The notes under the pieces: model-generated
The model's database searches: none
What the model was told of the DNA's origin: nothing
What the model saw: the letters and a program-made list of their open reading frames with translations, nothing else
Source: Minisyncoccota bacterium
GTDB taxonomy: Bacteria; Patescibacteriota; Minisyncoccia; Phycocordibacterales; CALRHW01
Direction of reading: 5' to 3'
Assembly (NCBI GenBank): GCA_046350795.1
Contig: JAXLZT010000001.1
Coordinates: 484,705-548,704, forward strand
DNA length: 64,000 nucleotides
Program-made: the position numbers and the translations under genes
Part shown: positions 14,153 through 63,320 of the stretch, one piece after another
Numbering within the stretch: the first letter of the stretch is position 1
How the letters are laid out: every line of letters starts with the position of its first letter

Positions 14153-14183
14153 TATAAAAAAATAGGACGGTCCGTGTGGACCG
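14153..14183 (-). terminator. intrinsic terminator for the minus-strand GC-rich small gene (CGGTCC-gtgt-GGACCG followed by a T8 tract on the minus strand)
   Basis: A perfect 6-bp GC stem with a 4-nt loop. The U-tract lies on the minus strand only, with an A-tract on the plus side. Confidence 0.6.
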
Positions 14184-14215
14184 CCCTTGGTTGTGGCTTC
14201 TTCCGACTTGTCAGC

Positions 14216-14377
14216 TCACAGCCAGATCGGCTGCGGGAGCTTGGGGCTGGAGATGATGCGACCCAAGTAGACCTTGACGTGAAGCGTCTTGGACGACTTG
14301 CGTCCCTTGTCATCGAAGTGGTGGACGACCACTTCCGCCTTCGTTCTCGTCTTGTTCTTGCTGATGATCTTGACCAT
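14216..14377 (-). CDS. hypothetical small basic protein (53 aa) in GC-rich cassette A
   Basis: Hand translation gives MVKIISKNKTRTKAEVVVHHFDDKGRKSSKTLHVKVYLGRIISSPKLPQPIWL. GGGG Shine-Dalgarno 6 nt upstream. Codons end in G/C (aag, gtc, atc, ctc), unlike the neighbours. The unit has its own promoter and terminator. The ORF track only showed the longer overlapping frames at 14152..14481 (-) and 14174..14407 (+), which look non-coding. Confidence 0.5.
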   Translation of the reverse strand: MVKIISKNKTRTKAEVVVHHFDDKGRKSSKTLHVKVYLGRIISSPKLPQPIWL

Positions 14378-14410
14378 TTCGGACCCCTTTCAGAAGTGTA
14401 CGAATGACAT

Positions 14411-14429
14411 GTGACTGAACACCAGTCAC
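14411..14429. promoter_or_regulatory. perfect inverted repeat GTGACTG-N5-CAGTCAC at the 5-prime end of the cassette-A transcript, upstream of grpE
   Basis: A 7-bp perfect palindromic arm pair lying between the cassette-A -10 box and its Shine-Dalgarno, and roughly 100 nt upstream of grpE. Confidence 0.45.
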
Positions 14430-14435
14430 AATACA

Positions 14436-14463
14436 AGTATAACATGTATATATATTTTGTCAA
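14436..14463 (-). promoter_or_regulatory. sigma70-type promoter TTGACA-16-TATACT (minus strand) for cassette A
   Basis: Consensus -35 box with 5/6 match in the -10 box and a 16-nt spacer. Confidence 0.55.
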
Positions 14464-14533
14464 GTAGAACGAATAACTCAATTTTGCCTATAATATTGAA
14501 ACCATGGTCGTGTTTTGATAACATACTGTTGTT

Positions 14534-15115
14534 ATGAAGGATAAAAATCTATCTAAAAACGAAAACGAAGAGCAAATGGACGAAGAAATCGTTTTTGAAA
14601 ATGATGCTGAATTTGCAGAAAAAGATCCAAAGCAATCTCTCGACAAACTCCGTAAAAAATTAAAAGAAACAGAAGCAGAAAAACAAGAATACCTAGACGG
14701 ATGGCAGAGAGCCAAAGCTGATTTCATAAATTCACGCAAAAGAGACGCAGATCTCCAAGCTGATATAATAAAATTCGCAAACGAAAATTTAATTTCAGAT
14801 ATCATTCCAGTCCTCGACAGCTTTGATATGGCGATGCAAAACAAAGAAGCTTGGGAAAAGGCACCAAAAGATTGGAGAGTCGGAGTCGAGTATATTTACA
14901 ATCAACTTTTAGGAGTACTCACTCAAAATGGATTAAAACAATTCAACCCAATAGGGCAAAATTTTGATCCAAAACTCCATGAAGCCGTCGACACAATAGA
15001 AACGAATGATTCAGGTGAAGATGGGAAAATTTTGGAGGTTTTGCAAAAAGGTTATAGTCTTAATGAAAAGCAAATACGTTCGGCAAAAGTAAAAACCGGT
15101 AAATTTGTAGGATAA
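14534..15115 (+). CDS. grpE: nucleotide exchange factor GrpE
   Basis: GrpE coiled-coil and beta domain; operon context with dnaK-dnaJ. Confidence 0.9.
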
Positions 15116-15140
15116 ATTAATAACTAATACAAATAAAATT

Positions 15141-18135: not shown

Positions 18136-18148
18136 GAAATCTTTATCA

Positions 18149-18176
18149 TTTGACCCCTGCACCTCGACCATATATT
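18149..18176 (+). promoter_or_regulatory. candidate promoter (TTTGAC-16-TATATT) for GC-rich cassette B
   Basis: Hexamer matches about 55 nt upstream of the cassette-B ATG. Confidence 0.35.
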
Positions 18177-18229
18177 ATTCCGTCAGGTTAAGGTCTTTTA
18201 CCCCCAAACTCCGAAAGGAAAGAAGCATC

Positions 18230-18628
18230 ATGCCGAAAAAAGAAAAACGCAAAGTTTCCGGTGTGCTTGGAAGGCGAGCGCTTCGCCTCCCACTTCAGCT
18301 CGAAAGGCTCAAACACCCGGATTCCTGGCTTGAGCGAATGGTGGCACGTATGTGGCATAAAGAGAATGCTGTTCTTCCTGCACCGTTCCCGTTTGTGCTC
18401 GGTGCTCAACCACCAGCTTTCTCGGGCAGGGTCAGAGCCATTCTGAATGAGGGCAACCCCAGCCGTCGTGACGTTGAAATCGTCAACTCGACTATCCAGT
18501 GGCTTGGTACCGGGGTCGGTATCTGTTTCTGTAGGGAGGTCGTAGAGACCTACAATCGAGAACTGGTGAAGCGCAGGCAAGCACGACGACGCAAGATGCA
18601 GAAAGCATCTGGCACGAAGACCTCCTAA
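18230..18628 (+). CDS. hypothetical basic protein (132 aa) in GC-rich cassette B
   Basis: A GC-rich ORF with G/C-ending codons and Lys/Arg-rich termini. Upstream promoter-like hexamers and its own terminator are present. The equally long antisense ORF 18188..18580 lacks these signals. Confidence 0.45.
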   Translation: MPKKEKRKVSGVLGRRALRLPLQLERLKHPDSWLERMVARMWHKENAVLPAPFPFVLGAQPPAFSGRVRAILNEGNPSRRDVEIVNSTIQWLGTGVGICFCREVVETYNRELVKRRQARRRKMQKASGTKTS

Positions 18629-18646
18629 CGGGGGTTTTCTTTTTTA
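18619..18646 (+). terminator. intrinsic terminator of cassette B (GACCTCC-taac-GGGGGTT followed by a T-rich tract)
   Basis: Stem with a G-U wobble followed by TTTTCTTTTTT; the stop codon sits in the loop. Confidence 0.5.
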
Positions 18647-18654
18647 TAAAAAAC

Positions 18655-18683
18655 TTTCAAAACCCGCGCCATTCTGCTATTAT
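18655..18683 (+). promoter_or_regulatory. candidate promoter (TTTCAA-17-TATTAT) for trpS, giving a leaderless transcript
   Basis: The -10 box ends 7 nt before the trpS ATG and there is no Shine-Dalgarno. Confidence 0.35.
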
Positions 18684-18690
18684 TTCCAAT

Positions 18691-19677
18691 ATGAAATCAG
18701 GAAAAAAGATACTCGTGTCTGGTGTAAAACCAACCGGTCGACCGCATATTGGCAACTATTTCGGCGCGATGAAACAAATGGTTGATTTGCAAGATGAGCA
18801 CGACTGTCATCTTTTTATTGCCGACCTACATGCACTCACATCAGTAAATGACGCGATAGAGCTTTCACAAAGCACTCTTGATCTAGCCATCGACTACCTC
18901 GCTATCGGCCTCGACCCTAAAAAAGTCACAATATACAAACAATCAGACATACCTCAGACGGCTGAGCTGGCTTGGATTTTCAACTGCATCACCACAATGC
19001 CATACCTCATGCGCGCGCATGCTTTCAAAGACGCCGAAGCAAAAAATCATGAAATAAATGTTGGAGTTTTTGATTATCCTCTACTAATGTCAGCAGATAT
19101 TTTACTTCCAGAAGCAGACGTAGTACCTGTAGGCGCCGACCAAAAACAGCATATAGAAATAGCTCGCGACACAGCAGAAAAATTCAACCGACTTTTTGGC
19201 GAGACTTTCAAAATGCCCGAAGCTTTGATTGTAAAAGACGTCATGACTGTCCCAGGCACAGACGGACAAAAGATGAGTAAAAGCTATGGCAACACTATTT
19301 GCCTTTTTGCTAGCGACGACGAGATCATGAAGGCTGTAATGAAAATACCGACAGATTCAAAGGGTGTAGATGAGCCAAAAAATCCTGATGAATGCAAAGT
19401 TTTTGCACTGCACAAACTTTTTGCCAGCGCAGATGAGCTAGCTGACATTCGTGCAAGATATGAAAAGGGTGGACTCGGATACAAAGAATCAAAAGAAATT
19501 CTCGCGCGTAACATTTCAGCATTTATCACGCCACTTCGCACAAAACGCGAGAAGATAGCGCAAGACACAGAATTTATCATGGACATTTTGAAAGATGGAG
19601 GAAAAAAGATGCACATGCACGCAGAAAAGAAAATGAATGAAATCCGCACAAAGGTGGGATTGGCTTTTAAGCAGTAA
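18691..19677 (+). CDS. trpS: tryptophan--tRNA ligase
   Basis: HIGN motif (GRPHIGNYFG) and KMSKS (KMSKSYGN). Confidence 0.95.
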   Translation: MKSGKKILVSGVKPTGRPHIGNYFGAMKQMVDLQDEHDCHLFIADLHALTSVNDAIELSQSTLDLAIDYLAIGLDPKKVTIYKQSDIPQTAELAWIFNCITTMPYLMRAHAFKDAEAKNHEINVGVFDYPLLMSADILLPEADVVPVGADQKQHIEIARDTAEKFNRLFGETFKMPEALIVKDVMTVPGTDGQKMSKSYGNTICLFASDDEIMKAVMKIPTDSKGVDEPKNPDECKVFALHKLFASADELADIRARYEKGGLGYKESKEILARNISAFITPLRTKREKIAQDTEFIMDILKDGGKKMHMHAEKKMNEIRTKVGLAFKQ

Positions 19678-19707
19678 TCAAGATATTTAAAAATTAGGCA
19701 AACAAAA

Positions 19708-19740
19708 ACCCCGCAACAACGCAGACTCGGGGTCTTTGTT
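19708..19740. terminator. bidirectional terminator between trpS (+) and the cassette-C gene (-): ACCCCG...CGGGGT with T-rich flanks
   Basis: A GC stem flanked by A-tracts and T-tracts on both strands, sitting between the convergent stops. Confidence 0.45.
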
Positions 19741-19758
19741 GATGCGGAGTGTCTCTCA

Positions 19759-20256
19759 TCACCACGTGTAGTAGAACCTGGGATCCGTGGCAGGCGAGTA
19801 TCGATCCCCTGGGTACTTGTCTTCATTCCGGATAATTGCACCGCTTTTGCTGAGTTCAAACTGCATGTGACTCGCATTGGCGGTATATCCGTGATCGGTC
19901 GGAGTGATCTCGTTGAATGCGTACGAGATGTGCCGACCCGCTTCGTCCAAGACATACATAGCCACGTCGCGCTTGCCGAGAAGAGCCCCGTCAGAAAGAA
20001 GCCCAATCTGGTCGTAGCCCTCAAGCGAAGCAGGCATGTCCTTTTCGTTGAGGACAAACCAGAACTGACCCATTCGGCCGATCTTGGTGCCGTCTCCCAG
20101 TGTCTGGTACTCCTGCAAGATCGGCTTAATGCCAATCTGCTGGTTCACCTGGATAGCGTTGGCTTCCAGGTAGTTGATTCGCATCCTCAAATTGTGCGAA
20201 TTGCAGATCGAATCAACCGCAAACAGAAAGAGGACGAAAATCAGAGCATTCTTCAT
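19759..20256 (-). CDS. hypothetical secreted protein (165 aa, signal peptide) in GC-rich cassette C
   Basis: N-terminal signal-like sequence MKNALIFVLFLFAVDSIC. AAGGAG Shine-Dalgarno 8 nt upstream of the ATG. GC-rich codon usage. Confidence 0.55.
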   Translation of the reverse strand: MKNALIFVLFLFAVDSICNSHNLRMRINYLEANAIQVNQQIGIKPILQEYQTLGDGTKIGRMGQFWFVLNEKDMPASLEGYDQIGLLSDGALLGKRDVAMYVLDEAGRHISYAFNEITPTDHGYTANASHMQFELSKSGAIIRNEDKYPGDRYSPATDPRFYYTW

Positions 20257-20329
20257 TGGTACTTCTCCTTGTTGGTGAGGTATTTCAAACTACGTGTCAG
20301 AATTGAAACGTAGGAACAGTCTTGCCACT

Positions 20330-20358
20330 ACTTTAGCACCTTTTTGGCTATATGTCAA
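20330..20358 (-). promoter_or_regulatory. sigma70-type promoter TTGACA-17-TAAAGT (minus strand) for cassette C
   Basis: Consensus -35 box. The leader carries CTACGT...ACGTAG and TTCAA...TTGAA stems. Confidence 0.45.
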
Positions 20359-20456
20359 GCTAGTAAGAAGTTCTATTTTGCCCATATTTCTGTTATTATT
20401 CCTCATATATTTAATAAAACAGCCCGGCGAAACCGGTGCGACGAAAAAACAAAACC

Positions 20457-21851
20457 ATGGAAAGAACTTTAGTGAGAGAACTCAAAAATCATATCGGCAA
20501 AGAAGTGCTACTCAAGGGCTGGGTGGATATTCGTCGTGATCACGGCAAGCTCATTTTCATAGACATGCGCGACGCGTCTGGAAAAGTGCAAATGGTTGCG
20601 CTTCCAAATCACACAGAAGCACACGCTCTCGCAAACACAGTGCGCACAGAATGGGTCATTGAAGTCAAAGGAAAAGTAAATCCTCGCCCAGAAAAAATGG
20701 TAAAAGCGGGTGAGCTCAACGGAGAGCTTGAAATAGAAATCCTCGACATGAAAGTGCTCAACGAAGCACAGACACCTCCTTTTGACGTGGGCTCTGACGG
20801 TCGCGACATCAACGAAGAGACTCGTCTCAAGTATCGCTACCTTGATTTGCGCCGACCGAGAATGCAAGCAAACATTCGCAACCGCCACAAAGCGATACAG
20901 TTTGTGCGCGAGTTTTACACGCGCGAAGGTTTTACAGAAGTCGAGACACCATATCTGACCAAGTCTACACCTGAGGGCTCTCGCGACTACATTGTGCCTT
21001 CTCGCCTAGATCAAGGTAAATTTTACGCCCTCCCACAATCTCCTCAGCAATACAAACAGCTCCTCATGTCCGCTGGCTTTGAAAGATATTTTCAGATTGC
21101 TCGATGTTTCCGCGACGAAGACACACGAGGCGACAGACAGCCTGAGTTTACACAAATAGATATTGAAATGAGTTTTGCTGTACAAGAAGACGTGATGGCA
21201 ATGAATGAAAAAATGATCACAGAGCTTGTGCAAAAGCTTTATCCAGAGAAAAAAATCACAGCGCTTCCTTTTCCACGACTTTCATACAAAGAAGCTATGG
21301 AAAAGTACGGCAATGACAAGCCTGATTTGCGCGTAGACAAGAATGATCCAAATGAGCTCGCATTTTGCTGGGTTATAGACTTCCCATTTTTTGAAAAGAC
21401 AGATGAGGGCGGTTGGACATTTACTCACAATCCTTTTTCTGCGCCAAAGCCTGAGTACGTGCCAGATTTACTCGCAAAGAAAAATATAGAAGGCATCGTC
21501 GCTGCACAGTATGACATGGTGCTCAATGGCTTTGAAATAGGTGGCGGAGGAATACGCAACCACACTCCTGCAATGCTTCGCGCTGTGTTTGAAATAATGG
21601 GATATGAGGCGGAGAGGATAGAGAAAAACTTTGGTCATATGTTAGAAGCTTTCGCTTCTGGTACACCTCCACATGGAGGTCTAGCTTTTGGCTTTGATAG
21701 ATTGATTATGCTCCTACAAAACGAGCCGAATATTCGCGAGGTCATAGCTTTTGCCAAAACAGGCGAAGGCCGTGATCCAATGATGCAGTCACCAGCCGAG
21801 GTTGCGGGTGCGCAGTTGAAAGAGTTGGGGATTAAGGTGGTCATGGACTAA
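20457..21851 (+). CDS. aspS: aspartate--tRNA ligase, bacterial type but lacking the GAD insertion domain
   Basis: QSPQ (LPQSPQQYKQ), motif 2 FRDED and motif 3 GGGG.R are present. The segment between DKPDLR and WVIDFPFFE is only about 15 aa, against about 130 aa in E. coli. The ORF track starts at a GTG at 20436; the ATG at 20457 gives MERTLV. Confidence 0.9.
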   Translation: MERTLVRELKNHIGKEVLLKGWVDIRRDHGKLIFIDMRDASGKVQMVALPNHTEAHALANTVRTEWVIEVKGKVNPRPEKMVKAGELNGELEIEILDMKVLNEAQTPPFDVGSDGRDINEETRLKYRYLDLRRPRMQANIRNRHKAIQFVREFYTREGFTEVETPYLTKSTPEGSRDYIVPSRLDQGKFYALPQSPQQYKQLLMSAGFERYFQIARCFRDEDTRGDRQPEFTQIDIEMSFAVQEDVMAMNEKMITELVQKLYPEKKITALPFPRLSYKEAMEKYGNDKPDLRVDKNDPNELAFCWVIDFPFFEKTDEGGWTFTHNPFSAPKPEYVPDLLAKKNIEGIVAAQYDMVLNGFEIGGGGIRNHTPAMLRAVFEIMGYEAERIEKNFGHMLEAFASGTPPHGGLAFGFDRLIMLLQNEPNIREVIAFAKTGEGRDPMMQSPAEVAGAQLKELGIKVVMD

Positions 21852-21916
21852 AAATTACAGGAATCAAAGTTTAATTGGTTAATTTCAAATTAAAGGTTTT
21901 GGTCTTAACTTTTAAT

Positions 21917-21944
21917 TTGCATTATTTGTATTATATGCTATACT
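21917..21944 (+). promoter_or_regulatory. sigma70-type promoter TTGCAT-16-TATACT for fic and the downstream hsd genes, giving a leaderless mRNA
   Basis: The -10 box ends 6 nt before the fic ATG and there is no Shine-Dalgarno. Confidence 0.5.
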
Positions 21945-21950
21945 CGACCT

Positions 21951-23087
21951 ATGGCAGACAAATACAAGTCAGGAACGCATAAGCAACATGAGGGCTACAA
22001 GAGCTTTCAGCCATCTTTGGTTAATAAGAGTTTTGAGTGGACAGACAAGCGTATTGATGTCCTTCTTGCTGATGCCATGAGATATCTCGGCGAGCTCAAC
22101 GCTTTTTCAAAGTTGGTCCCTGACGTGGATTTTTTCATAAAAATGCACATCGCAAAAGAAGCTACTACCTCAAGCAAAATTGAGGGTACACAGACAAAAC
22201 TCGATGAGGCACTTCTCCCTGAACTTGAAATTGATCCAGAAAAAAGAAACGACTGGGAAGAAGTTCAGAACTATGTAAAAGCCATCAACTACTCAATTGC
22301 AGAACTTGAAAGGCTACCCCTATCAATACGGCTTGCAAGAGATACGCATAAAGTTTTACTTTCTAGTGTTCGTGGATATACAAAACTTCCAGGAGAAGTT
22401 CGCCGAAGCCAGAACTGGATCGGTGGTGCAACCCTCAAAGATGCGGTATTTATTCCACCTCACCATGAAGAAGTTGGTGAACTCTTGAGTGATCTTGAAA
22501 GGTTTTGGCACAACAAAGAGGTTGATATTCCAGATCTTATAAAGATCGCCATCTCGCACTATCAATTCGAAACCATCCACCCATTCCTCGATGGTAATGG
22601 TCGTATTGGTCGACTGCTCATTACTCTTCACTTGGTGAGCCTTGGTATTCTTCAGAAGCCAACACTCTACATCTCAGATTTCTTCGAAAAGCATCGTCCG
22701 CAATATTACGATGGTCTTTCGCGTGTTCGCGAAACGAACGACATTGAGCACTGGTTGAGATTCTTTCTTACTGGTGTGCTTGAGACCGCAAAGAATTCAA
22801 GACAGACACTCGAGAAGATTATTGACCTTAGAAAGAAGTACGAAACAACAATCGAAAAAGGCATGGGCATCAAACGCCAAAAGCTTGGTAAGGAACTTTT
22901 GCGTTGCTTGTTCTCACAGCCAGTTGTAACGATTCGAGACATCGAGTCAATGCTCTCGGTGACATTCCCGACAGCGTCTGCAATAACAAAAGATTTTGTT
23001 AAGCTGGGTTTGTTCTCAGAGAAGACTGGGCTTAAGAAGGATCGAATCTTCTACCTTACCGAATACATTAATCTCTTTAATAAATAA
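21951..23087 (+). CDS. fic: Fic family protein (AMPylase/adenylyltransferase), class II with an N-terminal inhibitory motif
   Basis: Canonical [12 protein letters not shown] Fic motif. An upstream SSKIEG matches the [ST]xxxE[GN] inhibitory-helix motif. Confidence 0.85.
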
Positions 23088-23095
23088 TAAACATC

Positions 23096-25012: not shown

Positions 25013-25082
25013 AGGAAATAGAGATTGATATAGAAAAGAGTCGAGAATGAATTGCTCACTCTCCTAAAGCAACTATAAACAT

Positions 25083-25409
25083 ATGGCTGACATTAAACTG
25101 CCACAATTAAATAACAAAGAAGAAGTTCTTACTTTCCTAAAGGAAGCGCCTGTCCAACTTGCAGAAGTTGTTACTGGAATTCTCGGATCTGAATCTACCG
25201 AATGGAAGATGTCTGCTGGCCGCATTATCCAAAGTGCGTTAAAAGGTAATCTTCTAACATGCCTTGGCAATGAACTAAAAAAGTATAAAGACAAAGGTGA
25301 AATTAAAGATGATTTCCTTGCAACAGATGCGACCAGAATGGCTTTAAATGAGATCTTAAAGATGATCGATGGTAATGATATTCGGATGAGATTAAATTTC
25401 GTGCAATAA
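25083..25409 (+). CDS. hypothetical protein (108 aa) between hsdM and hsdS
   Basis: ORF only; AT-rich. It may be the 5-prime half of a gene disrupted before the next ORF. Confidence 0.3.
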   Translation: MADIKLPQLNNKEEVLTFLKEAPVQLAEVVTGILGSESTEWKMSAGRIIQSALKGNLLTCLGNELKKYKDKGEIKDDFLATDATRMALNEILKMIDGNDIRMRLNFVQ

Positions 25410-25461
25410 AATCAATTTTTATAAGTGGTATCAATACTAATTCAACAAACGAAGATGAGTT

Positions 25462-25818
25462 TTGGCATACGAATTTTTACGCACTGCTGTAGGTGTTTCT
25501 GGTACTGAAGTTTTGATACTTAAAGCAAATTTCGCAATAGCAAACAAGCAATATGTAAATGATGTTGGAATATTGATTGAAAAAAATGCTTCTCCACACT
25601 CTAGACAAGGATGGGCAAATATAGTTTCAAAACAAATGGGCCTACAAGGGTTTAATACTCTTGTGAGTAAGTATGAAGAAAATCTTGAAAAGCTTGGACT
25701 CATTTCTCCAAGAAATTATGACAACCGATTTTCAAGTGAATTTATTCCAACAAATAAGTTTCGTCTAAGTGAGATGGGTTATAAATTCTGCCAGTTCATG
25801 ACTAAATATGAGAAATAA
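25462..25818 (+). CDS. hypothetical protein (118 aa), TTG start, overlapping the hsdS start by 11 nt
   Basis: The ORF lies in a different frame from the previous one, 53 nt downstream. It has a weak TTG start and no clear Shine-Dalgarno. Confidence 0.3.
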   Translation: MAYEFLRTAVGVSGTEVLILKANFAIANKQYVNDVGILIEKNASPHSRQGWANIVSKQMGLQGFNTLVSKYEENLEKLGLISPRNYDNRFSSEFIPTNKFRLSEMGYKFCQFMTKYEK

Positions 25819-27133: not shown

Positions 27134-27137
27134 ATAT

Positions 27138-28379: not shown

Positions 28380-28380
28380 T

Positions 28381-31350: not shown

Positions 31351-31358
31351 TCTTATTT

Positions 31359-31835
31359 ATGAAAAAACTGACAGAAGAATTTGTTCAGAAACAAGTAGAA
31401 AAATATCTGCATGATAAGGGTTGGAATCACAACCTTAAATCAAAGGGCTTGCGTGAACATGGCTGCGATATTGTGGTATCAGATGGTAATAATAAATACA
31501 AAGCGCGCCGATTTTTCATAGAATGTAAGGGTCGATCTTACTCAAAACACGCTCGTTCAATTGCAGATACAAATATGCTGTATGGTTTAGGTCAATTGGT
31601 AACTAGAATGAAGGTGATAGCTAAACATGCTTACAAATATGGTTTGGCTCTTCCGAAGGAAAGTGCAGACATTGCACTCCGTAGGATACCGTGGCAAGTT
31701 GCACGTCAACTCTGTTTAAGTATTTTTTCAATAGACGATTCTGGTATAGTTACAGAATATTCACCAAAAGATTTTAAAAAATTTAATAAAAAACAACCCT
31801 CAAGCACGCGTAATCACAAATACCGGTGTAGGTAA
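31359..31835 (+). CDS. small PD-(D/E)xK-fold protein, YraN/UPF0102-like
   Basis: HGCDIVVSDGNN...FFIECKGR matches the D...ExK core and resembles the GEIDLI...VEVKxR block of YraN-type endonucleases. It has a C-terminal extension. Confidence 0.35.
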   Translation: MKKLTEEFVQKQVEKYLHDKGWNHNLKSKGLREHGCDIVVSDGNNKYKARRFFIECKGRSYSKHARSIADTNMLYGLGQLVTRMKVIAKHAYKYGLALPKESADIALRRIPWQVARQLCLSIFSIDDSGIVTEYSPKDFKKFNKKQPSSTRNHKYRCR

Positions 31836-32253
31836 AAAGCTAGATGAGATAGGTCTGCCGTACGAGATTGTAGAGGGTCGAGCAAATACTGATATAAATG
31901 GTGTGACTATAGAAGCGTTTGATGGAAAACATGAAGAGATTTTCCTCGAGATTGGTCAGGTGCAAAATACTGGATATTTTATAGACAACACACTCTTCTA
32001 TCCCGGTGACTCTTTTCACAATCCAGAAAAGCCAGTGGATATACTCGCTCTTCCTGTAGCTGGCCCGTGGTGTAAAATCTCTGATGCAATCAGATATGCT
32101 CTCGCAGTAAAGCCAAAGAAAGCTTTTCCTGTGCATGATGGAATATTGCAAAAAGATCGCATAGGTAGCTCTCACAAAGTACCTGAAAAAGTACTTGCCG
32201 AAAACGGCATTGAGTTTGTGATTATGAATGAGGGGGATGAGATGATACTGTAG
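31750..32253 (+). pseudogene. 5-prime-truncated remnant of an MBL-fold metallo-hydrolase gene
   Basis: The open frame (from 31750; GTG at 31903) encodes only a C-terminal MBL-fold half (...DILALPVAGPW...KKAFPVHDG...). The N-terminal HxHxDH region is missing, and the upstream part overlaps the preceding ORF out of frame. Confidence 0.45.
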
Positions 32254-32279
32254 ACTTATTCTTATTTTAGTGGTACAAT
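32251..32279 (+). promoter_or_regulatory. candidate promoter TAGACT-17-TACAAT for GC-rich cassette D
   Basis: Hexamers with a 17-nt spacer about 55 nt upstream of the cassette-D ORF. Confidence 0.35.
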
Positions 32280-32320
32280 CTTCCAAGTTACATTTGTACC
32301 TTATCAACAAACTTCAGTTC

Positions 32321-32367
32321 GCCATAGCCTACAGTGGCTTTAAATAGGCCTTTGTCGGCTATGGCGA
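32321..32367 (+). promoter_or_regulatory. leader stem-loop: 10-bp perfect inverted repeat CGCCATAGCC...GGCTATGGCG enclosing an ATG of the cassette-D ORF
   Basis: Perfect 10-bp arms separated by about 27 nt; an in-frame ATG lies inside the 3-prime arm. Coordinates are approximate (+/-2). Confidence 0.45.
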
Positions 32368-33125
32368 CACAGTGTTGCCCGCTAGCACTTCACAATGCCA
32401 TCCGTTTTACACGGACTGGCTCTACAGGAGACTGCCTAATGGGCACCTCAAATCCATCCTTTCAGACCAGCCAGATGCGTAAGGTTGAGGATACGCTACA
32501 TGAACAAGGGGTTACCCCAGAGATTCTGCAGAGAAACCTACTCGAGGGGGGTTATCTGTCGGACATTGCAGAAGCTGCGGCGTTTGGAGTACTTCCTTCT
32601 CGTAAGGAACTGCGCAATCTCTATGGTTTGAATGCGAAGACAAATCCACATCACAGCATCGTGATCAACTACGGCACGAAGAAGAATCCGAGAACACTCG
32701 GGGAGATGATCAGTTCGATAGAAGAGCTCCTTTGTGATCGTGATTCGAGTGGCTCCACGAAGACCTTTCGGGAACAGGGTCGCGTTGAGTATTTCACTCT
32801 TGTTGCAAACTTCCCCAATAAACTTCCTGATCCGAAAGCACTTCATCGCTTTCTGTCAGCGGAACCCGGCGGGAAACTCTGGATGTACGGAGGAATCGAA
32901 CACCTCGTGCATATCGACTGGAGTCAAACTTCGATTTTGGGGCCAAAGGCCCAGCTCTATGCACCAGGAGGAGCAATCCACTTCGGAAGAAATGATGAGG
33001 ACGTGCTCGTACCATACCTCACAATTAATCAGCATGGTAAGAAGTGGCTACGGTGGGAACTCAACCCATTTAGGAATGGTGTTGTTGAACTCAAGATCCT
33101 GCTTGTACGCAAGGTCAGCAACTGA
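32334..33125 (+). CDS. hypothetical protein (up to 263 aa) in GC-rich cassette D
   Basis: A GC-rich ORF whose start could be the GTG or one of the downstream ATGs. It has its own promoter-like hexamers and a strong terminator. No recognisable domain. Confidence 0.5.
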   Translation: MALNRPLSAMATQCCPLALHNAIRFTRTGSTGDCLMGTSNPSFQTSQMRKVEDTLHEQGVTPEILQRNLLEGGYLSDIAEAAAFGVLPSRKELRNLYGLNAKTNPHHSIVINYGTKKNPRTLGEMISSIEELLCDRDSSGSTKTFREQGRVEYFTLVANFPNKLPDPKALHRFLSAEPGGKLWMYGGIEHLVHIDWSQTSILGPKAQLYAPGGAIHFGRNDEDVLVPYLTINQHGKKWLRWELNPFRNGVVELKILLVRKVSN

Positions 33126-33139
33126 AGAAAGAACACGAG

Positions 33140-33169
33140 CCCGATCGCAATTGTGCGGTCGGGCTTTTC
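33140..33169 (+). terminator. intrinsic terminator of cassette D (CCCGATCGCA-attg-TGCGGTCGGG followed by CTTTTC)
   Basis: A 10-bp stem with one G-U pair, followed by a U-rich tract. Confidence 0.55.
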
Positions 33170-59948: not shown

Positions 59949-59978
59949 ATTGGGTTAAATTAAAAATACAAGTTAAGA

Positions 59979-60016
59979 GGGGCCCGCGCATACCGCGCGG
60001 GCCCCTTTCTATTTCG
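59979..60016. terminator. bidirectional terminator (GGGGCCCGCGC-atacc-GCGCGGGCCCC) between recR (+) and the cassette-E gene (-)
   Basis: An 11-bp perfect GC stem with T-rich tracts on both strands. Confidence 0.6.
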
Positions 60017-60039
60017 TCTGCTCCCGAAACCAGAGCTCC

Positions 60040-60492
60040 TCAGGTCTCCCAGTGCGGGATTCCAGTGAAGTCGATCTCCTTCTTCTCCTCGGGAGTCTCC
60101 TTGATCACCCCGAGCGCGGCAGCCCTCTCTTCTGCTGCCTTTTTCGCGTCTTCGACGGCATCCTCCACCCCCTTGATCAGGTCAGAGACCTTCAGTCGCC
60201 CAACTTCGAGGCGCTTGATCTGCTGATCGATCACGGTGCTGGAAATCTCAACGCCCACCAGATCCGACACATCGAGGTAGAACTCCTCGATGGCTGAAGG
60301 ATCGACCGACATGCTGACCTTGGAGGCACCCGCACCTCGCAACATGTCGGTGTCGACATGTGCTTCGAAGGCGAGCGCATCATTCCTCACAAAGGCGTCA
60401 GCCAGGTCATCTTCGATACCAAAGACTTCGATCAGAGACGCCGCGATCTTCTCCCTGACCGTCTCCGCTTTCTTTCTTGCTTCCGTGGCCAT
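60040..60492 (-). CDS. hypothetical acidic protein (150 aa) in GC-rich cassette E
   Basis: An ATG (MATEARKK...) preceded by a GGAGA Shine-Dalgarno with an 8-nt spacer. The track start at 60507 is an upstream TTG. GC-rich codons; own promoter and terminator. Confidence 0.5.
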   Translation of the reverse strand: MATEARKKAETVREKIAASLIEVFGIEDDLADAFVRNDALAFEAHVDTDMLRGAGASKVSMSVDPSAIEEFYLDVSDLVGVEISSTVIDQQIKRLEVGRLKVSDLIKGVEDAVEDAKKAAEERAAALGVIKETPEEKKEIDFTGIPHWET

Positions 60493-60558
60493 AGTGGCGT
60501 TCTCCAAGTATACGGAGGTTTACTGATCTGTGGGTTGCCAACGTGACAATCCGATATA

Positions 60559-60587
60559 ATTTATATCAGAAAATACAATTTTGTCAA
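60559..60587 (-). promoter_or_regulatory. sigma70-type promoter TTGACA-17-ATAAAT (minus strand) for cassette E
   Basis: Consensus -35 box, AT-rich -10 box, 17-nt spacer. Confidence 0.45.
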
Positions 60588-60633: not shown

Positions 60634-60639
60634 TTTTGA

Positions 60640-60957: not shown

Positions 60958-60966
60958 AGTCGTTAT

Positions 60967-60994: not shown

Positions 60995-61003
60995 GAAAGT
61001 TTG

Positions 61004-61283
61004 GAAAAAAGGGAAGCCCCGGAGACGCGATGCATCAATCCGGGGCAGAGCGTTACACCCAGCTTGGCGACAGGGCGATCACGCTCTAGATACTGACTGG
61101 ATCACCTCCCGTTCTTGGATCCAAGGGCTTCAAGGCCAGATCTGCCTGATCCTGAAGCTTTGTGGCGAGATGGAAAACCCACGATAGTCTTCATGGTGAT
61201 AACTCCTCTGGCGCATTGCGCCGGTTGTTCACACATTGGTGCTAACCCGTTTATAAGTATAAACAGACAAACAAAAAATACAA
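61004..61283 (-). other. GC-rich cassette F, a compact minus-strand transcription unit (promoter TTGTAT-16-TATACT, leader hairpin, roughly 250-nt transcript, intrinsic terminator): sRNA or small-peptide mRNA
   Basis: -35 at 61278-83 and -10 at 61256-61. GGCGC-aat-GCGCC hairpin at 61210-22. Terminator CCCCGGAGA...TCCGGGG plus T-tract at 61004-45. Internal palindromes CAGATCTG and CTTGGATCCAAG. Confidence 0.45.
61102..61194 (-). CDS. candidate 30-aa peptide inside cassette F (MKTIVGFPSRHKASGSGRSGLEALGSKNGR)
   Basis: GAGGAG Shine-Dalgarno 8 nt upstream of the ATG. The longer track ORF 61102..61290 begins upstream of the predicted transcription start. Confidence 0.25.
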   Translation of the reverse strand: MKTIVGFPSRHKASGSGRSGLEALGSKNGR

Positions 61284-61296
61284 CCCCCAATTCCCC

Positions 61297-62370
61297 CTAT
61301 TCGTCAGCTTCTGGTTTTTCTAAAACCATAGTTTCTATTCCCACAGCCTGACCAGTAATCCTTAGCACATCTTTATCCAATTTTTTAAATTCTTTTGAGC
61401 TTGCATTGAAATGATTGATGGTGGTCGCAAGAGAGTTGCCCATTTTTTGATGATAGTCATCATAGCTTTTGAGGTGCTTACCAAGCTCGTCGACGCGCTT
61501 GATAATATCCTTTGCAGTATCTTCTATTTGCATTGCTTTTAGTCCCTGCAAGACAGTCTGTAGATATGCCAAAAAGGAAGTTGGCGACACAATAATCACC
61601 TTATATTTCCCCGCAGCGCGTTGTATCAGATTTTCTGTATCTTCTTTTAGCGCCCCAATTTTATTTATCAAAAGATCATAATAAATGGCTTCGTGTGGAA
61701 TAAACATAAAAGCAAAATCCATCGTATTTTCATTTGGACGAATATACTTTGCTGTCTCGACGATACGATTTTTTAAATCATTTACAAAGACTTTTTCTAA
61801 ACGCTCTTTTTCCACCGTATTTTTTTCCTCAATAATTCTATTGTAATTTTCTAGAGAAAACTTTGAGTCAATAGGTATAACTTTATCTTTTACAAACACT
61901 GCAGCATCTACTATTTCTCCATCAGTAAAAGCGTACTGCATTTGATATGATCCTGGTGGCAATACATTTTTTAGCAAAGTTTCTAGATAATATTCCCCCA
62001 CTATTCCGCGTTGTTTTGGATTTTTTAAAATATCTTGAAGTGACTGTAGCTGATCTGCAAAAGACACTACCTGCTTATTGGTCTCATCAAGTTTTGTGAG
62101 GCTTTGTGTTACTTCTTTTATAAGTCGAGAAGACTCGGAAAATTGATTGCGCATGGATTCATTTACCTGTTTGCTTGTCTCCCCTATCTTTGCATCCACG
62201 GTGCGAGTAAGCTCATTCATTTGCTGTAAAAGCAGGTTGAAACCGGTATCATTTTTACCAGCATCAGAGCTTGCTACAGATGATTTTTGTTTAGAAATTA
62301 AAAACCATACAAAAAACACATTACCCAAAAAGGCCACTAGCAAGATAATTAATAGCATTTCAACTGACAT
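61297..62370 (-). CDS. rmuC: DNA recombination protein RmuC
   Basis: N-terminal transmembrane helix, coiled-coil and the RmuC C-terminal domain. Confidence 0.8.
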   Translation of the reverse strand: MSVEMLLIILLVAFLGNVFFVWFLISKQKSSVASSDAGKNDTGFNLLLQQMNELTRTVDAKIGETSKQVNESMRNQFSESSRLIKEVTQSLTKLDETNKQVVSFADQLQSLQDILKNPKQRGIVGEYYLETLLKNVLPPGSYQMQYAFTDGEIVDAAVFVKDKVIPIDSKFSLENYNRIIEEKNTVEKERLEKVFVNDLKNRIVETAKYIRPNENTMDFAFMFIPHEAIYYDLLINKIGALKEDTENLIQRAAGKYKVIIVSPTSFLAYLQTVLQGLKAMQIEDTAKDIIKRVDELGKHLKSYDDYHQKMGNSLATTINHFNASSKEFKKLDKDVLRITGQAVGIETMVLEKPEADE

Positions 62371-62406
62371 ACCAAAAATTATAGCAAATTGTTATACTAT
62401 TAGCAT

Positions 62407-62862
62407 ATGACATTACAACAACAAATTAGAGATGGTATAAAACAAGCAATGCTTTCAAAAGACAGTGTACGGCTCAATGTTCTCCGAGGACTTGTGTCTG
62501 CTTTTACAAATGAACTCGTAGCTCAAAAAAGAAAGCCTCAAGAGGAGCTAAATGACGAAGAAGCACTCAATGTTATTAAAAGAAGCGTAAAACAAAGAAA
62601 AGACTCTATAGATCAGTTTAAAGCTGGTGGACGTGATGATCTAGTGGCCTCAGAAGAATCAGAACTGGCTATTTTACAGACCTTTTTGCCAGCAACGATG
62701 AGTAAAGACGCTATACGAGCAATAGCAGAAAAAAAGAAAGCCGAGCTCGGTGTGACAGACAAATCTAAAATGGGAGTGTTTATGGGTGCAGTAATGAAAG
62801 AGCTAAAGGGCCAAGCTGATGGCGCTGATGTAAAGGAAGTCATAGAAAGCCTTTTCAACTAA
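62407..62862 (+). CDS. GatB/YqeY domain-containing protein
   Basis: The YqeY family pattern across the whole length. Confidence 0.8.
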   Translation: MTLQQQIRDGIKQAMLSKDSVRLNVLRGLVSAFTNELVAQKRKPQEELNDEEALNVIKRSVKQRKDSIDQFKAGGRDDLVASEESELAILQTFLPATMSKDAIRAIAEKKKAELGVTDKSKMGVFMGAVMKELKGQADGADVKEVIESLFN

Positions 62863-62891
62863 AATTCAAAATCCGATTATCCACAGCCTAT

Positions 62892-62920
62892 TTGACTTTT
62901 GCGTGTTTTTGTGATAGATT
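62892..62920 (+). promoter_or_regulatory. sigma70-type promoter TTGACT-17-TAGATT for cassette G
   Basis: Near-consensus hexamers. The leader carries a GGGGA-cgt-TCCCC hairpin at 62941-53. Confidence 0.5.
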
Positions 62921-62982
62921 GATACAGGATGTTATGGCGTGGGGACGTTCCCCTAGCCAATTTCACACACGGAGGTGTAAAG

Positions 62983-63300
62983 ATGGTTCTCAGACCACAG
63001 ACAGAGGTCGAGCGTCTTGCCACCTACTCGGTGGCAAAATTTCGGGCAAATCCGAGAATGGGTTTACCGATCGCTATCATAGAGGTGCTCCGCTATGCGG
63101 GAAGAGAGTACCTCTATGAGAACGTGCTCAACGAATGTCGTCGCAGAAGTCAGATCAAGAGACGAGCAAAGAGTGATGCGCTCAAGAACACGACGACACA
63201 AGAATCCAAGCCGTGCCAAAAAGTGACAAAATCACATACTGGCACGGACACTCCTTTCCTCCCAGGAATGGAACCAACAAAGAAGTACAGGCTCACCTAA
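62983..63300 (+). CDS. hypothetical basic protein (105 aa) in GC-rich cassette G
   Basis: An ATG (MVLRPQ...) 7 nt after a GGAGG Shine-Dalgarno. The track ORF begins upstream at 62929. GC-rich codons; a terminator follows. Confidence 0.5.
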   Translation: MVLRPQTEVERLATYSVAKFRANPRMGLPIAIIEVLRYAGREYLYENVLNECRRRSQIKRRAKSDALKNTTTQESKPCQKVTKSHTGTDTPFLPGMEPTKKYRLT

Positions 63301-63320
63301 CGGTGCGCCTTTTGTTTTAT
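63290..63320 (+). terminator. intrinsic terminator of cassette G (GGCTCACC-taac-GGTGCGCC followed by TTTTGTTTT)
   Basis: A stem with one mismatch followed by a U-tract. Confidence 0.45.

What the first reader, a model, noticed from the sequence alone, without database searches (positions are those of the whole stretch)
14153..63320. Seven GC-rich cassettes scattered in an AT-rich genome, each with its own promoter, leader hairpin and terminator
The seven cassettes span about 14153-14463 (-), 18149-18646 (+), 19708-20358 (-), 32251-33169 (+), 59979-60587 (-), 61004-61283 (-) and 62892-63320 (+). They run at about 50-58% GC against about 36-40% for the surrounding housekeeping genes. Each encodes a small ORF whose codons end overwhelmingly in G/C, the opposite of the host bias. 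Each also has a near-consensus sigma70 promoter (TTGACA-like -35 with a 16/17-nt spacer), its own GC-clamped intrinsic terminator and, in five of the seven, a short stem-loop in the 5-prime leader. The seven proteins share no obvious similarity with one another and match no family I recognise. The pattern looks like repeated capture of foreign genes from a high-GC donor, or a mobile promoter-terminator scaffold. For a CPR-type episymbiont a high-GC host such as an actinobacterium would be a natural donor.
Basis: seen in the sequence. Interest (0 to 1): 0.75.

Follow-up and report, generated by a model that had tools for sequence, protein, structure and literature searches.

The report
GC-rich orphan-gene cassettes in Paceibacterota
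Seven small, GC-rich genes, each with its own strong promoter and terminator, sit between housekeeping genes of an AT-rich ultra-small (CPR) bacterium; they are fast-evolving, CPR-specific accessory genes rather than DNA captured from a high-GC host, and one carries an RNA leader absent from Rfam 15.

Summary
Seven intergenic units reach 0.49-0.58 GC against a median of 0.38. Their GC3 is 0.51-0.87 against 0.22-0.45 for host genes. The best sigma-70 and terminator matches in the scanned regions lie at their ends.

The window is a Candidatus Paceibacterota MAG. In a relative (L005), S9-GrpE-DnaK-DnaJ-TrpS-AspS-ScpA are contiguous, so C1-C3 and the island carrying C4 are insertions. In L004 the C2 site holds a PemK toxin gene instead.

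C5, C6 and C7 sit at the same positions in a sister species (L090) and are still GC-rich. There the flanking proteins are 85-98% identical, but C5 is 48% identical by BLAST (62% over aligned codons; dN/dS 0.32) and C7 about 29%. All nine same-species strains carry these three cassettes.

I found no homologue in phages, plasmids or high-GC taxa. C4 belongs to a very divergent superfamily in which 27 of 28 members are GC-richer than their flanks. Most have near-perfect promoters and a conserved, covarying leader hairpin that is not in Rfam.

The cassettes are moron-like autonomous accessory units. I infer that their GC-richness is an intrinsic property. Their function is unknown. Capture from a high-GC host is not supported.

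The parts
14153..14463 (-). Cassette C1. Promoter TTGACA-16-TATACT (14463-14436). 5'-terminal 7-bp hairpin (14429-14411). 53-codon ORF (14216-14377), GC3 0.87. Terminator hairpin (14187-14164) followed by a T-run. Lies between rpsI (S9) and grpE.
   Evidence: Absent from L005 and L006, where S9 and GrpE are 34-44 nt apart. Gene callers annotate the antisense 77-aa ORF instead. The coding strand is inferred from the orientation of the promoter and terminator. The unit could be a small RNA.
18146..18655 (+). Cassette C2. Promoter TTGACC-17-TATTAT (18150-18178). No leader hairpin. 132-aa basic-ended ORF (18230-18628), GC3 0.55. Terminator (18616-18646). Lies between dnaJ and trpS.
   Evidence: The boundaries come from the alignment with L004, where an unrelated PemK gene fills the same site. 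Annotated as MFO0718919.1, a singleton cluster.
19702..20358 (-). Cassette C3. Promoter TTGACA-17-TAAAGT (20358-20330). Leader hairpin (20313-20290). 165-aa ORF with a hydrophobic N-terminus that looks like a signal peptide (19759-20256), GC3 0.675. Terminator (19732-19702), shared head-on with trpS. Lies between trpS and aspS.
   Evidence: Only a self hit among 5.8 billion proteins. TrpS and AspS are adjacent in L005. The structure model is useless, with pLDDT 43.
32251..33169 (+). Cassette C4. Promoter TAGACT-17-TACAAT (32251-32279). Conserved leader RNA motif (32312-32406). SD and 228-aa ORF (32439-33125). Terminator (33137-33168). Lies at the end of an 11.3-kb Fic and type I R-M island, just before scpA.
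   Evidence: leader z -4.9; covariance model hit, 55.7 bits on the sense strand against 27.1 antisense; protein family; superfamily and motif.
59976..60587 (-). Cassette C5. Promoter TTGACA-18-TAAATT (60587-60558). Leader hairpin (60552-60532). 150-aa acidic ORF (60040-60492), GC 0.57, GC3 0.72. 14-bp terminator hairpin (60008-59976). Lies between rplU (L21) and recR.
   Evidence: The orthologue in L090 has a conserved promoter, leader (U-A to C-G compensatory change), SD and terminator, but a divergent body that includes a 24-codon duplication. dN/dS is 0.32.
61005..61285 (-). Cassette C6. Weak -35 (TTGTAT) and -10 TATACT (61283-61256). 30-codon ORF (61102-61194) whose stop lies inside GGAGGTGATCC. 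About 110 nt of conserved non-coding 3' region, ending in the terminator (61044-61005). Lies between rmuC and rplU.
   Evidence: In L090 the -10 element and the 3' region are about 93% identical, with 1-2-nt indels, so that region is non-coding. The ORF keeps its length of 30 codons but not its sequence. It may be a small RNA or a dual-function RNA.
62892..63320 (+). Cassette C7. Promoter TTGACT-17-TAGATT (62892-62920). Leader hairpin (62935-62959). SD GGAGGTG and 105-aa ORF (62983-63300; annotated as 123 aa from 62929), GC3 0.54. Terminator (63290-63318). Lies after yqeY.
   Evidence: z -2.6. L090 has a GC-rich 126-aa gene at the same site with only marginal similarity (27% over 66 aa, E 2e-4), and the core of the leader hairpin is conserved there.

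Best explanation
The seven units are autonomous, single-gene accessory expression cassettes. They resemble phage 'morons' but sit in the chromosome of a Candidatus Paceibacterota (CPR) bacterium. They belong to CPR-restricted orphan families that evolve quickly.

Anatomy seen in the sequence:
- a sigma-70 promoter, strong in six of the seven;
- in most cassettes, a stem-loop at or near the 5' end of the transcript;
- a Shine-Dalgarno site;
- a GC-rich ORF;
- a strong intrinsic terminator.
Each unit would therefore be transcribed on its own and kept separate from the neighbouring housekeeping operons.

Evolutionary behaviour shown by comparison:
- The units occupy intergenic hot spots of a conserved backbone.
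- They are fixed within the species.
- They are inherited vertically between sister species. Their promoter, leader and terminator stay conserved, while the protein diverges roughly 3 to 30 times faster than its neighbours.
- Over longer distances they are lost, replaced, or diverge beyond recognition. Relatives carry cassettes of their own, built the same way.

Inferred:
- The GC-richness is a maintained property of this class of gene and not a donor fingerprint. Either selection on the mRNA or GC-biased gene conversion could maintain it.
- The 5' stem-loops stabilise or regulate the mRNA.
- In C4 the leader is a conserved RNA element. It may switch between two pairings and so control a very strongly transcribed gene.
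- The proteins probably act in fast-changing interactions with a host, a phage or competitors. Their biochemical function is unknown.
For: Anatomy.

Origin of the window: a Candidatus Paceibacterota MAG, on a contig of 562,216 bp. The neighbouring loci come from Patescibacteria.

Insertions into a backbone:
- L005 has S9-GrpE-DnaK-DnaJ-TrpS-AspS-ScpA-ScpB contiguous.
- In L004 the C2 site holds a PemK gene with sharp homology breaks.

Relatives carry their own cassettes: L006 has three GC-rich units with promoters matching at least 10 of 12 positions, leaders and terminators. They lie at equivalent sites but show no protein similarity.

Vertical inheritance with fast protein evolution, from L090:
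- DnaB is 98% identical, YqeY 95%, RmuC 94%, L21 93% and RecR 85%.
- C5 is 48% identical by BLAST, or 62% over aligned codons.
- For C5, dS is 0.82 and dN/dS is 0.32. For the flanking genes, dS is 0.50-1.40 and dN/dS is 0.011-0.098.
- Regulatory elements are conserved and show compensatory changes.

Fixed within the species: nine strains at 99.2-99.6% identity all carry C5, C6 and C7.

C4 superfamily:
- 36 ORFs are linked by BLASTP.
- 27 of 28 are GC-richer than their flanks, with means of 0.535 and 0.412 and p = 4e-8.
- 29 of 36 have promoters matching at least 10 of 12 positions, and 12 match perfectly. Control windows reach this level in 3% of cases.
- The leader hairpin shows 9-21 double substitutions at five inner-stem pairs, and its G.U pairs are conserved on the sense strand only.
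- The covariance model scores higher on the sense strand.

No homologues elsewhere.
Against: - No expression data exist. Promoters, transcription starts and terminators are consensus matches only.
- Maintenance of GC-richness is shown across a family only for C4.
- For C5 my rough calculation allows neutral decay from an ancestor with GC3 of 0.84-0.94, so an old capture from a very GC-rich donor is not excluded.
- C1, C2, C6 and C7 were never validly searched against the large protein databases. Their only search was the concatenated query, which failed even to find itself.
- C1 and C6 may be small RNAs rather than protein genes. The C1 strain differences fall mostly on codon positions 1 and 2 of the proposed frame.
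- Only one sister genome fragment (L090) supports vertical inheritance of C5-C7.
- The cassettes are not in a phage, so 'moron' is an analogy and not a membership.
Confidence: 0.6

Rival explanations
1. The cassettes are pieces of foreign DNA captured repeatedly and recently from a high-GC donor, such as an actinobacterial host. Their GC-richness is the donor's composition, not yet ameliorated.
For: - GC3 of up to 0.87 in a genome with GC3 of about 0.25-0.3.
- C1-C3 are absent from L005 and L006.
- CPR genomes in the fetched loci carry ComEC-type uptake genes (L085).
- For C5 alone, neutral decay from an ancestor with GC3 of 0.84-0.94 would fit. This is my own estimate.
Against: - No homologue in any high-GC taxon for C3, C4 or C5.
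- C5-C7 are orthologous in a sister species, with dS like that of the backbone.
- Members of the C4 superfamily are GC-richer than their flanks in 27 of 28 different genomes and are deeply divergent from one another.
- The promoters are AT-rich, near-consensus and lie inside the variable segment.
Confidence: 0.12
2. The cassettes are cargo that is repeatedly re-introduced from an unsampled, GC-richer mobile reservoir specific to CPR bacteria, such as a phage, plasmid or transformation pool. They enter by recombination in the conserved flanks. GC-richness and rapid 'divergence' would then reflect allele replacement and not in-place evolution.
For: - Replacement at the same site, by unrelated or barely related genes (C2 against PemK in L004; C7 against g126 in L090, with saturated dS of 2.1).
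- The same architecture recurs in many genomic contexts for the C4 superfamily.
- The cassettes fit the phage moron definition given in PMC4378225.
Against: - No matches in 50,697 phage records, 72,556 plasmids or IMG/VR.
- No integrase, transposase or repeats at the junctions.
- The dS of C5 equals that of its neighbours, and its non-coding parts are collinear with L090. This argues for descent in place.
- No presence/absence polymorphism among nine strains.
Confidence: 0.15
3. Some units, C1 and C6 in particular, are structured small RNAs or dual-function RNAs. Their GC-richness reflects RNA structure, and their short ORFs are incidental or secondary.
For: - C6: the conserved part is the non-coding 3' 110 nt, about 93% identical to L090 with 1-2-nt indels. 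The 30-codon ORF sequence is not conserved.
- C1: the ORF has only 53 codons. Strain differences fall mainly on codon positions 1 and 2. An antisense ORF is what gene callers pick.
- GC-rich islands in AT-rich genomes are a classic signal of non-coding RNA. This rests on general knowledge.
Against: - No Rfam match, even at E <= 1.
- C1 has extreme three-base periodicity (GC by codon position 0.44, 0.35, 0.87) and a Shine-Dalgarno site.
- The C6 ORF keeps exactly 30 codons and its start context in L090.
- C2, C3, C4, C5 and C7 are clearly coding. Their long ORFs span the transcript, C5 has dN/dS of 0.32, and C4 has a conserved protein family.
Confidence: 0.3

Closest known systems
Morons of lambdoid and Mu-like phages (Juhala and Hendrix concept; definition as quoted in PMC4378225)
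   Same: A single coding region flanked by its own promoter and terminator. It is inserted between two genes that are adjacent in related genomes, its nucleotide composition differs from its neighbours, and no recombinase target is recognisable at the junctions.
   Different: These units lie in the chromosome between ribosomal, chaperone, tRNA-synthetase and repair genes, not in a phage or prophage. They are GC-richer than their surroundings. At least three are inherited vertically between sister species. In the one family that could be tested, the deviant composition recurs across many genomes and so is not just a sign of recent arrival.
Lineage-specific orphan (ORFan) genes and small genomic islets at intergenic hot spots of bacterial genomes
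   Same: Short, fast-evolving genes with no detectable homologues beyond close relatives. They sit at recurrent insertion points in a syntenic backbone and turn over between species.
   Different: Bacterial ORFans are typically AT-richer than their genome and weakly expressed (general knowledge). These are GC-richer and carry near-consensus promoters, structured leaders and strong terminators.
Integron gene cassettes
   Same: Single-gene modular units. The C4 leader hairpin, with a conserved outer stem, an internal loop and a variable inner stem, looks superficially like an attC site.
   Different: Integron cassettes lack promoters, carry attC at the 3' end, are arrayed next to intI, and have GTTRRRY cores. 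None of this applies here. In addition, the conserved G.U pairs of the C4 hairpin point to an RNA of the sense strand.
5' stabiliser hairpins and cis-regulatory leaders (for example the ompA 5' UTR, the B. subtilis aprE leader, and riboswitch or attenuator leaders)
   Same: A stem-loop at or near the 5' end of a monocistronic mRNA. In C4 there is a conserved helix, and its 3' arm may also be able to pair with a downstream box.
   Different: There is no match to any Rfam family. No ligand or protein partner is known. The alternative pairing is only weakly supported (4.14 of 5 pairs against 3.46 in shuffles).

Membership tests
Phage moron | Single ORF flanked by its own sigma-70-type promoter and factor-independent terminator | tested here: met
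   Sequences. Promoter and terminator scans. The -35 of C6 is weak.
Phage moron | Lies between two genes that are adjacent in a related genome | tested here: met
   L005 has S9|GrpE, DnaJ|TrpS and TrpS|AspS adjacent, and AspS|ScpA adjacent as well. For C5-C7 the only available relative (L090) also carries cassettes.
Phage moron | Nucleotide composition differs from the adjacent genes | tested here: met
Phage moron | Resides in a phage or prophage genome | tested here: not met
   The flanks are housekeeping genes. There are no PHROG hits and no phage or viral-contig matches.
Integron gene cassette | Promoterless ORF followed by an attC site with R''/R' cores, in an array next to intI | tested here: not met
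   Each unit has its own promoter. The units are scattered and lie on both strands. They share no imperfect palindromes or repeats. No integrase was found among the annotated flanks.
Recent horizontal transfer from a high-GC (actinobacterial) donor | Closest homologues lie in high-GC taxa | tested here: not met
   C3 finds only itself. C5 has one CPR sister homologue. The C4 homologues are hypothetical proteins; the single member carrying a taxon name is Candidatus Parcubacteria, and three further members looked up sit among housekeeping genes on unclassified metagenome contigs. C1, C2, C6 and C7 were not validly searched (one search failed).
Recent horizontal transfer from a high-GC (actinobacterial) donor | Absent from the same positions in close relatives | tested here: inconclusive
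   C1-C3 are absent or replaced in L004, L005 and L006. C5-C7 are present, GC-rich and syntenic in L090.
Known RNA families (Rfam 15) for the leaders or for C1/C6 | Covariance-model match at or near the gathering score | tested here: not met
   No hit at gathering threshold in the window. At E <= 1 there are no hits in the C1-C3 and C4 regions; in the C5-C7 region there are only eight hits well below gathering score, all over the C5 terminator or the rplU 3' end and its terminator, none over a leader, C6 or C7.
Diversity-generating retroelement target gene | Variable repeat paired with a template repeat near a reverse transcriptase | tested here: not met
Known anti-phage defence or toxin-antitoxin proteins | Match to a PADLOC or Pfam model | tested here: not met
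   Only the unrelated L004 gene at the C2 site is a PemK toxin.

The most novel reading that the evidence does not exclude
CPR bacteria of the Paceibacterota/Parcubacteria type carry a dedicated class of self-contained, very strongly transcribed gene cassettes. The GC-richness of these cassettes is actively maintained against the genome's AT bias, either by selection at the mRNA level or by GC-biased conversion at recombination hot spots. The cassettes encode hyper-divergent proteins used in fast-changing interactions. At least one large superfamily, which includes C4, is controlled by a structured leader RNA that matches no Rfam 15 family and was not found in a limited literature search, and this RNA may act as a switch.
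Probability: 0.3. Interest if true: 0.75.

Novelty: new variant of a known kind. Interest (0 to 1): 0.6.

Why it matters
CPR bacteria have tiny genomes, and most of their lineage-specific genes have no known function. This work identifies a recognisable architecture for such genes: a near-consensus promoter, a 5' hairpin, a GC-rich ORF and a terminator, placed in intergenic hot spots.

That architecture gives a simple way to find the fast-evolving part of these genomes, and it is the part most likely to mediate contact with hosts, phages or competitors.

If the GC-richness persists against a strong AT bias, it offers a natural test case for separating selection on mRNA from biased gene conversion in bacteria.

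The conserved leader hairpin of the C4 superfamily is a candidate new cis-regulatory RNA. It already has about 45 sequences and clear covariation, so it is ready for experimental probing.

Tried and rejected
- Concatenated query. One 863-aa query made of all seven proteins returned nothing from the 5.8-billion-protein search, not even the proteins themselves. I treat this as a tool artefact. It cost one of the three searches and is not evidence of absence.
I replaced it with a DNA pattern scan of the leader. That scan fixes the core of the hairpin by design, so the invariance of CATAGCC/GGCTATG carries no information.
- Phage or plasmid origin. tblastn against phages and plasmids, and three IMG/VR scans, found nothing.
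- Defence or toxin-antitoxin function. PADLOC, Pfam and PHROGs found nothing.
- Structure.
  - A profile search of PDB sequences found only spurious designer-PPR hits.
  - The afdb50 library was unavailable.
  - The C3 single-sequence model was useless, with pLDDT 43.
- DGR or a shared scaffold. No repeats link the cassettes.
- Positional orthology. C2 and C3 show no significant protein similarity to the L006 cassettes at equivalent sites. Only the bidirectional trpS/C3 terminator is shared.
- Hidden membership of the C4 superfamily. A profile HMM finds only C4, plus a marginal hit to the truncated g99 of L090.
- Alternative pairing in the C4 leader. It is only modestly better than shuffles, so I report it as tentative.
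- Assembly chimera. Rejected, because independent assemblies agree.
- Literature. The searches found no description of such cassettes in CPR.

Full report
**1. The observation**

In 300-nt bins the window runs mostly at 0.28-0.46 GC. The seven places reach 0.49-0.58. A 200-nt scan against the window median of 0.38 flags exactly these seven, plus three short bumps inside AlaRS, DnaJ and AspS.

Each place holds an ORF with deviant codon composition. GC3 is 0.87 (C1), 0.55 (C2), 0.675 (C3), 0.51-0.52 (C4), 0.72 (C5) and 0.54 (C7). The non-overlapping host ORFs range from 0.22 to 0.45. C6 has only a 30-codon ORF.

The total number of promoter-like matches in the scanned regions is no higher than in shuffled sequence. 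Even so, four of the eight matches with at least 10 of 12 positions lie immediately upstream of cassettes in the correct orientation. C4 and C7 score 9 of 12. The longest terminator hairpins lie at the cassette 3' ends.

Predicted leaders fold into a 5'-proximal hairpin in C1, C3, C4 (z -4.9) and C7 (z -2.6). The fold is weak in C5 and C6, and C2 has none.

The proteins do not resemble one another. They match no Pfam, PHROG or PADLOC model. There are no tRNAs and no Rfam families in the window.

Independent assemblies carry the same arrangement, so this is not a chimera.

**2. Where the window comes from, and what surrounds the cassettes**

Exact look-ups place the cassette proteins in a Candidatus Paceibacterota MAG, with locus tags U0522_027xx-029xx on a contig of 562,216 bp. 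The closest DnaK loci among 185,579 species genomes are all Patescibacteria.

The cassettes sit between housekeeping genes:

| Cassette | Position |
|---|---|
| C1 | S9, C1, then GrpE-DnaK-DnaJ |
| C2 | DnaJ, C2, TrpS |
| C3 | TrpS, C3, AspS |
| C4 | Fic and type I R-M island plus two unknown genes, C4, ScpA-ScpB |
| C5 | RecR, C5, L21 |
| C6 | L21, C6, RmuC |
| C7 | YqeY, C7, unknown gene |

**3. Accessory insertions into a conserved backbone**

In L005 (a Parcubacteria genome, DnaK 82% identical) the genes S9, GrpE, DnaK, DnaJ, TrpS, AspS, ScpA and ScpB follow one another with gaps of 4-47 nt. C1, C2, C3 and the whole 11.3-kb island that ends with C4 are therefore extra DNA.

In L004 (DnaK 96% identical) the DnaJ|TrpS site holds an AT-rich PemK/MazF-like toxin gene instead of C2. 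The alignment shows homology stopping 10 nt after the dnaJ stop codon and resuming about 45 nt before the trpS start. About 510 unrelated bases lie in between. The promoter, ORF and terminator are therefore all part of the exchangeable segment.

No integrase, transposase, target duplication or shared repeat accompanies any cassette. This rules out the proposed mobile promoter-terminator scaffold.

**4. Relatives have cassettes of their own**

L006 (DnaK 86% identical) lacks C1. At the equivalent DnaJ-TrpS-AspS spacers it carries three GC-rich single-gene units. Each has a promoter matching at least 10 of 12 positions, a leader hairpin, a Shine-Dalgarno site and a terminator. Their proteins show no significant similarity to C2 or C3.

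None of the 80 DnaK loci from other species encodes a homologue of any window cassette.

**5. Three cassettes are inherited vertically and evolve fast**

C5 has a single homologue, P0033. It lies on L090, a contig syntenic with window positions 57.9-63.7 kb.

Protein identities there are 98% for DnaB, 95% for YqeY, 94% for RmuC, 93% for L21 and 85% for RecR. The gene at the C5 position is only 48% identical by BLAST, or 62% over aligned codons. The gene at the C7 position shows only 27% identity over 66 aa by tblastn (E 2e-4), or 29% over aligned codons. The C6 spacer is again GC-rich. All of these genes are GC-rich in L090 too: the C5 homologue has GC3 of 0.66 and the C7-site gene 0.69.

The nucleotide alignment of C5 shows a conserved promoter, leader hairpin (with a U-A to C-G compensatory change), ribosome-binding region, first ten codons and terminator. 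The body of the ORF is divergent, and L090 carries a 24-codon tandem duplication.

For C5, dS is 0.82, within the range of its neighbours (0.50-1.40). Its dN is 0.26 against 0.015-0.09 for the neighbours. This gives dN/dS of 0.32 against 0.011-0.098. C5 therefore descended in place with its neighbours, is translated, and is under weak or partly diversifying constraint.

In C6 the -10 element and the 3' 110 nt are about 93% identical, with 1-2-nt indels and a compensatory change in the terminator. The 30-codon ORF keeps its length but not its sequence.

Nine same-species strains, at 99.2-99.6% nucleotide identity, all carry C5, C6 and C7. SNP density inside the cassettes is not clearly above that of the flanks. 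The cassettes are thus fixed within the species.

**6. Where the genes come from**

- C3 has no relative among 5.8 billion clustered proteins.
- C5 has only the sister-species homologue.
- There are no matches in phage genomes, plasmids or IMG/VR.
- C1, C2, C6 and C7 could not be validly searched, because the concatenated query failed.

An exhaustive HMMER search for C4 found 15 distant hypothetical proteins. The only one with a taxon name is Candidatus Parcubacteria. In four other genomes these homologues are again single genes, inserted between different housekeeping genes:
- NUDIX and IleRS;
- RNase H and ComEC;
- SpoU and a deacetylase;
- an unknown gene and DnaK.

Nothing points to Actinobacteria or any other high-GC group.

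**7. The C4 leader and its superfamily**

The Parcubacteria homologue (L084) shares about 100 nt of 5' leader with the window at the nucleotide level, although the two proteins are only about 30% identical.

A metagenome scan with the hairpin core returned 120 stretches. About 45 of them are one motif:
- an outer stem, (G)GTAGTCATAGCC pairing with GGCTATGACTAC(C);
- an A-rich/U-rich internal loop;
- an inner stem-loop of variable sequence;
- a few bases downstream, a GGTAGYCC.CTRGCA box or a related alternative.

In the sense orientation an ORF of 70 aa or more follows within about 7-110 nt in nearly all instances, usually of about 190-260 aa. The few exceptions mostly sit at contig ends. Thirty-six of these ORFs, including C4, form one BLASTP-linked and extremely divergent superfamily with no Pfam match.

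RNAalifold on 42 leaders predicts the hairpin. It shows 9-21 double substitutions at five inner-stem pairs. It also shows G.U pairs that are conserved on this strand only (40 of 42 and 33 of 42 sequences). This argues for an RNA of the sense strand.

A covariance model finds the motif only at the three C4-type cassettes in 1.27 Mb of Patescibacteria sequence. It always scores higher on the sense strand. The motif is absent from Rfam 15.

The 3' arm may alternatively pair with the downstream box. The evidence is modest: 4.14 of 5 pairs against 3.46 in shuffles.

Two family-wide properties matter for the finding:
- The ORF is GC-richer than its flanks in 27 of 28 genomes. The means are 0.535 and 0.412, and flank GC ranges from 0.33 to 0.57 (p = 4e-8).
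- In 29 of 36 loci a promoter matching at least 10 of 12 positions lies 28-51 nt upstream of the hairpin. Twelve of these match TTGACA-N16-18-TATAAT perfectly. Control windows reach this level in 3% of cases.

The core CATAGCC/GGCTATG was fixed by my search pattern, so its invariance carries no information.

**8. Interpretation**

Shown by the data: the units are self-contained, monocistronic accessory cassettes at intergenic hot spots. They are restricted, as far as detectable, to CPR genomes. They are fixed within the species, orthologous but fast-diverging between sister species, and replaced or unrecognisable at greater distance.

Their anatomy and genomic behaviour match the definition of phage morons (PMC4378225), except that they are not in a phage. 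I therefore say they work like morons. I do not file them as morons.

Inferred: the GC-richness is an intrinsic, maintained feature. The C4 superfamily shows it in almost every host background despite deep divergence. C5 and C7 keep it across a dS of 0.8 or more.

For C5 alone, my rough calculation allows neutral decay from an ancestor with GC3 of 0.84-0.94. Old capture from a very GC-rich donor cannot be excluded on composition alone.

What could maintain the GC is untested. One candidate is selection on mRNA stability or structure in very strongly transcribed units. Another is GC-biased gene conversion at recombination hot spots.

The 5' hairpins probably stabilise or regulate the transcripts. 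For C4 the leader is a candidate cis-regulatory RNA.

Function remains unknown. C3 has a hydrophobic N-terminus that looks like a signal peptide. C2, C7 and C1 are strongly basic, at least in part. C5 is acidic. The structure models gave nothing usable. C1 and C6 may be small or dual-function RNAs.

**9. Verdict**

The interpretation as repeated capture from a high-GC, possibly actinobacterial, host is not supported.

The finding is a new variant of a known kind: moron-like or orphan accessory cassettes, here chromosomal, GC-rich and CPR-specific. Attached to it is a candidate RNA motif that matches no Rfam 15 family, together with its protein superfamily.

Interest is moderate to high (0.6). 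The pattern is striking and reproducible across genomes, but there are no expression or functional data.

Noticed in passing
window 32312-32406; loci L084, L085, L091-L210: A conserved leader RNA hairpin: outer stem GTAGTCATAGCC/GGCTATGACTAC, an internal loop, a covarying inner stem and a downstream box. There are about 45 instances in metagenome contigs, each upstream of a GC-rich ORF of about 200 aa from one hyper-divergent superfamily. Most sit behind near-perfect sigma-70 promoters. The motif is not in Rfam 15.
   Followed up: yes
window 59990-59994: The 5-nt loop of the C5 terminator hairpin is inverted between strains. The window has ATACC, while L211, L214 and L217 have GGTAT. The stems are identical. 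This is a hairpin-loop inversion polymorphism.
   Followed up: partly
window 61092-61102 and L090 about 2660-2672: The stop codon of the 30-codon C6 ORF lies inside GGAGGTGATCC. By my own knowledge of the 16S sequence, this is a perfect complement of the usual 16S rRNA 3' tail. It is conserved in the sister species and is followed by about 100 nt of conserved non-coding sequence. No suitably spaced start codon follows.
   Followed up: partly
window 5117-7200: Against strain L002 the window is 98.7% identical over 10.8 kb. The exceptions are 6901-7200, with 71 differences in 300 nt, and 5117-6077, which is only 88.7% identical. These stretches span the end of a peptidase M3 gene and most of the AlaRS gene (5675-7489), so they probably mark a recombination tract.
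   Followed up: no
window 18691-31350: TrpS, AspS, Fic, HsdM and HsdR have GC3 of 0.40-0.45. The ribosomal and other genes elsewhere in the window have 0.22-0.33. The whole block, not only the cassettes, is compositionally shifted.
   Followed up: no
window 21852-33152: An 11.3-kb island lies between aspS and scpA, which are adjacent in L005. It carries a Fic protein, type I restriction-modification genes (HsdM, two ORFs of 441 and 413 aa, HsdR), several unknown ORFs, and C4 at its end.
   Followed up: partly
window 20436-21851: AspS is only 471 aa and matches the 590-aa bacterial model in two stretches, so it appears to lack the insertion domain. The L005 orthologue is 570 aa.
   Followed up: no
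L004 2989-3402: A lone PemK/MazF-like toxin gene (Pfam E 3e-13) occupies the DnaJ|TrpS hot spot in the closest other species. No obvious antitoxin ORF is present in the 45 nt upstream.
   Followed up: partly
L090 about 3330-3400: The C5 orthologue carries a 72-nt (24-codon) in-frame tandem duplication near its 5' end.
   Followed up: partly
L006 12005-12086 (-): A promoter matching 10 of 12 positions (TTGACT-18-TATACT) is followed about 25 nt later by an 11-bp terminator hairpin. This may be a very short transcription unit or small RNA beside a cassette.
   Followed up: no
window 14174-14407 (+): Gene callers in public assemblies annotate a 77-aa ORF (P0012) antisense to the proposed C1 gene. 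The NCBI record has no gene call for the 53-aa ORF.
   Followed up: partly
L090 2-301: A further GC-rich gene (GC 0.54), truncated at the contig end, lies beyond the C7 site where the window has an AT-rich 110-aa gene. It gives a marginal hit (E 0.001 in a tiny database) to the C4-superfamily profile.
   Followed up: no
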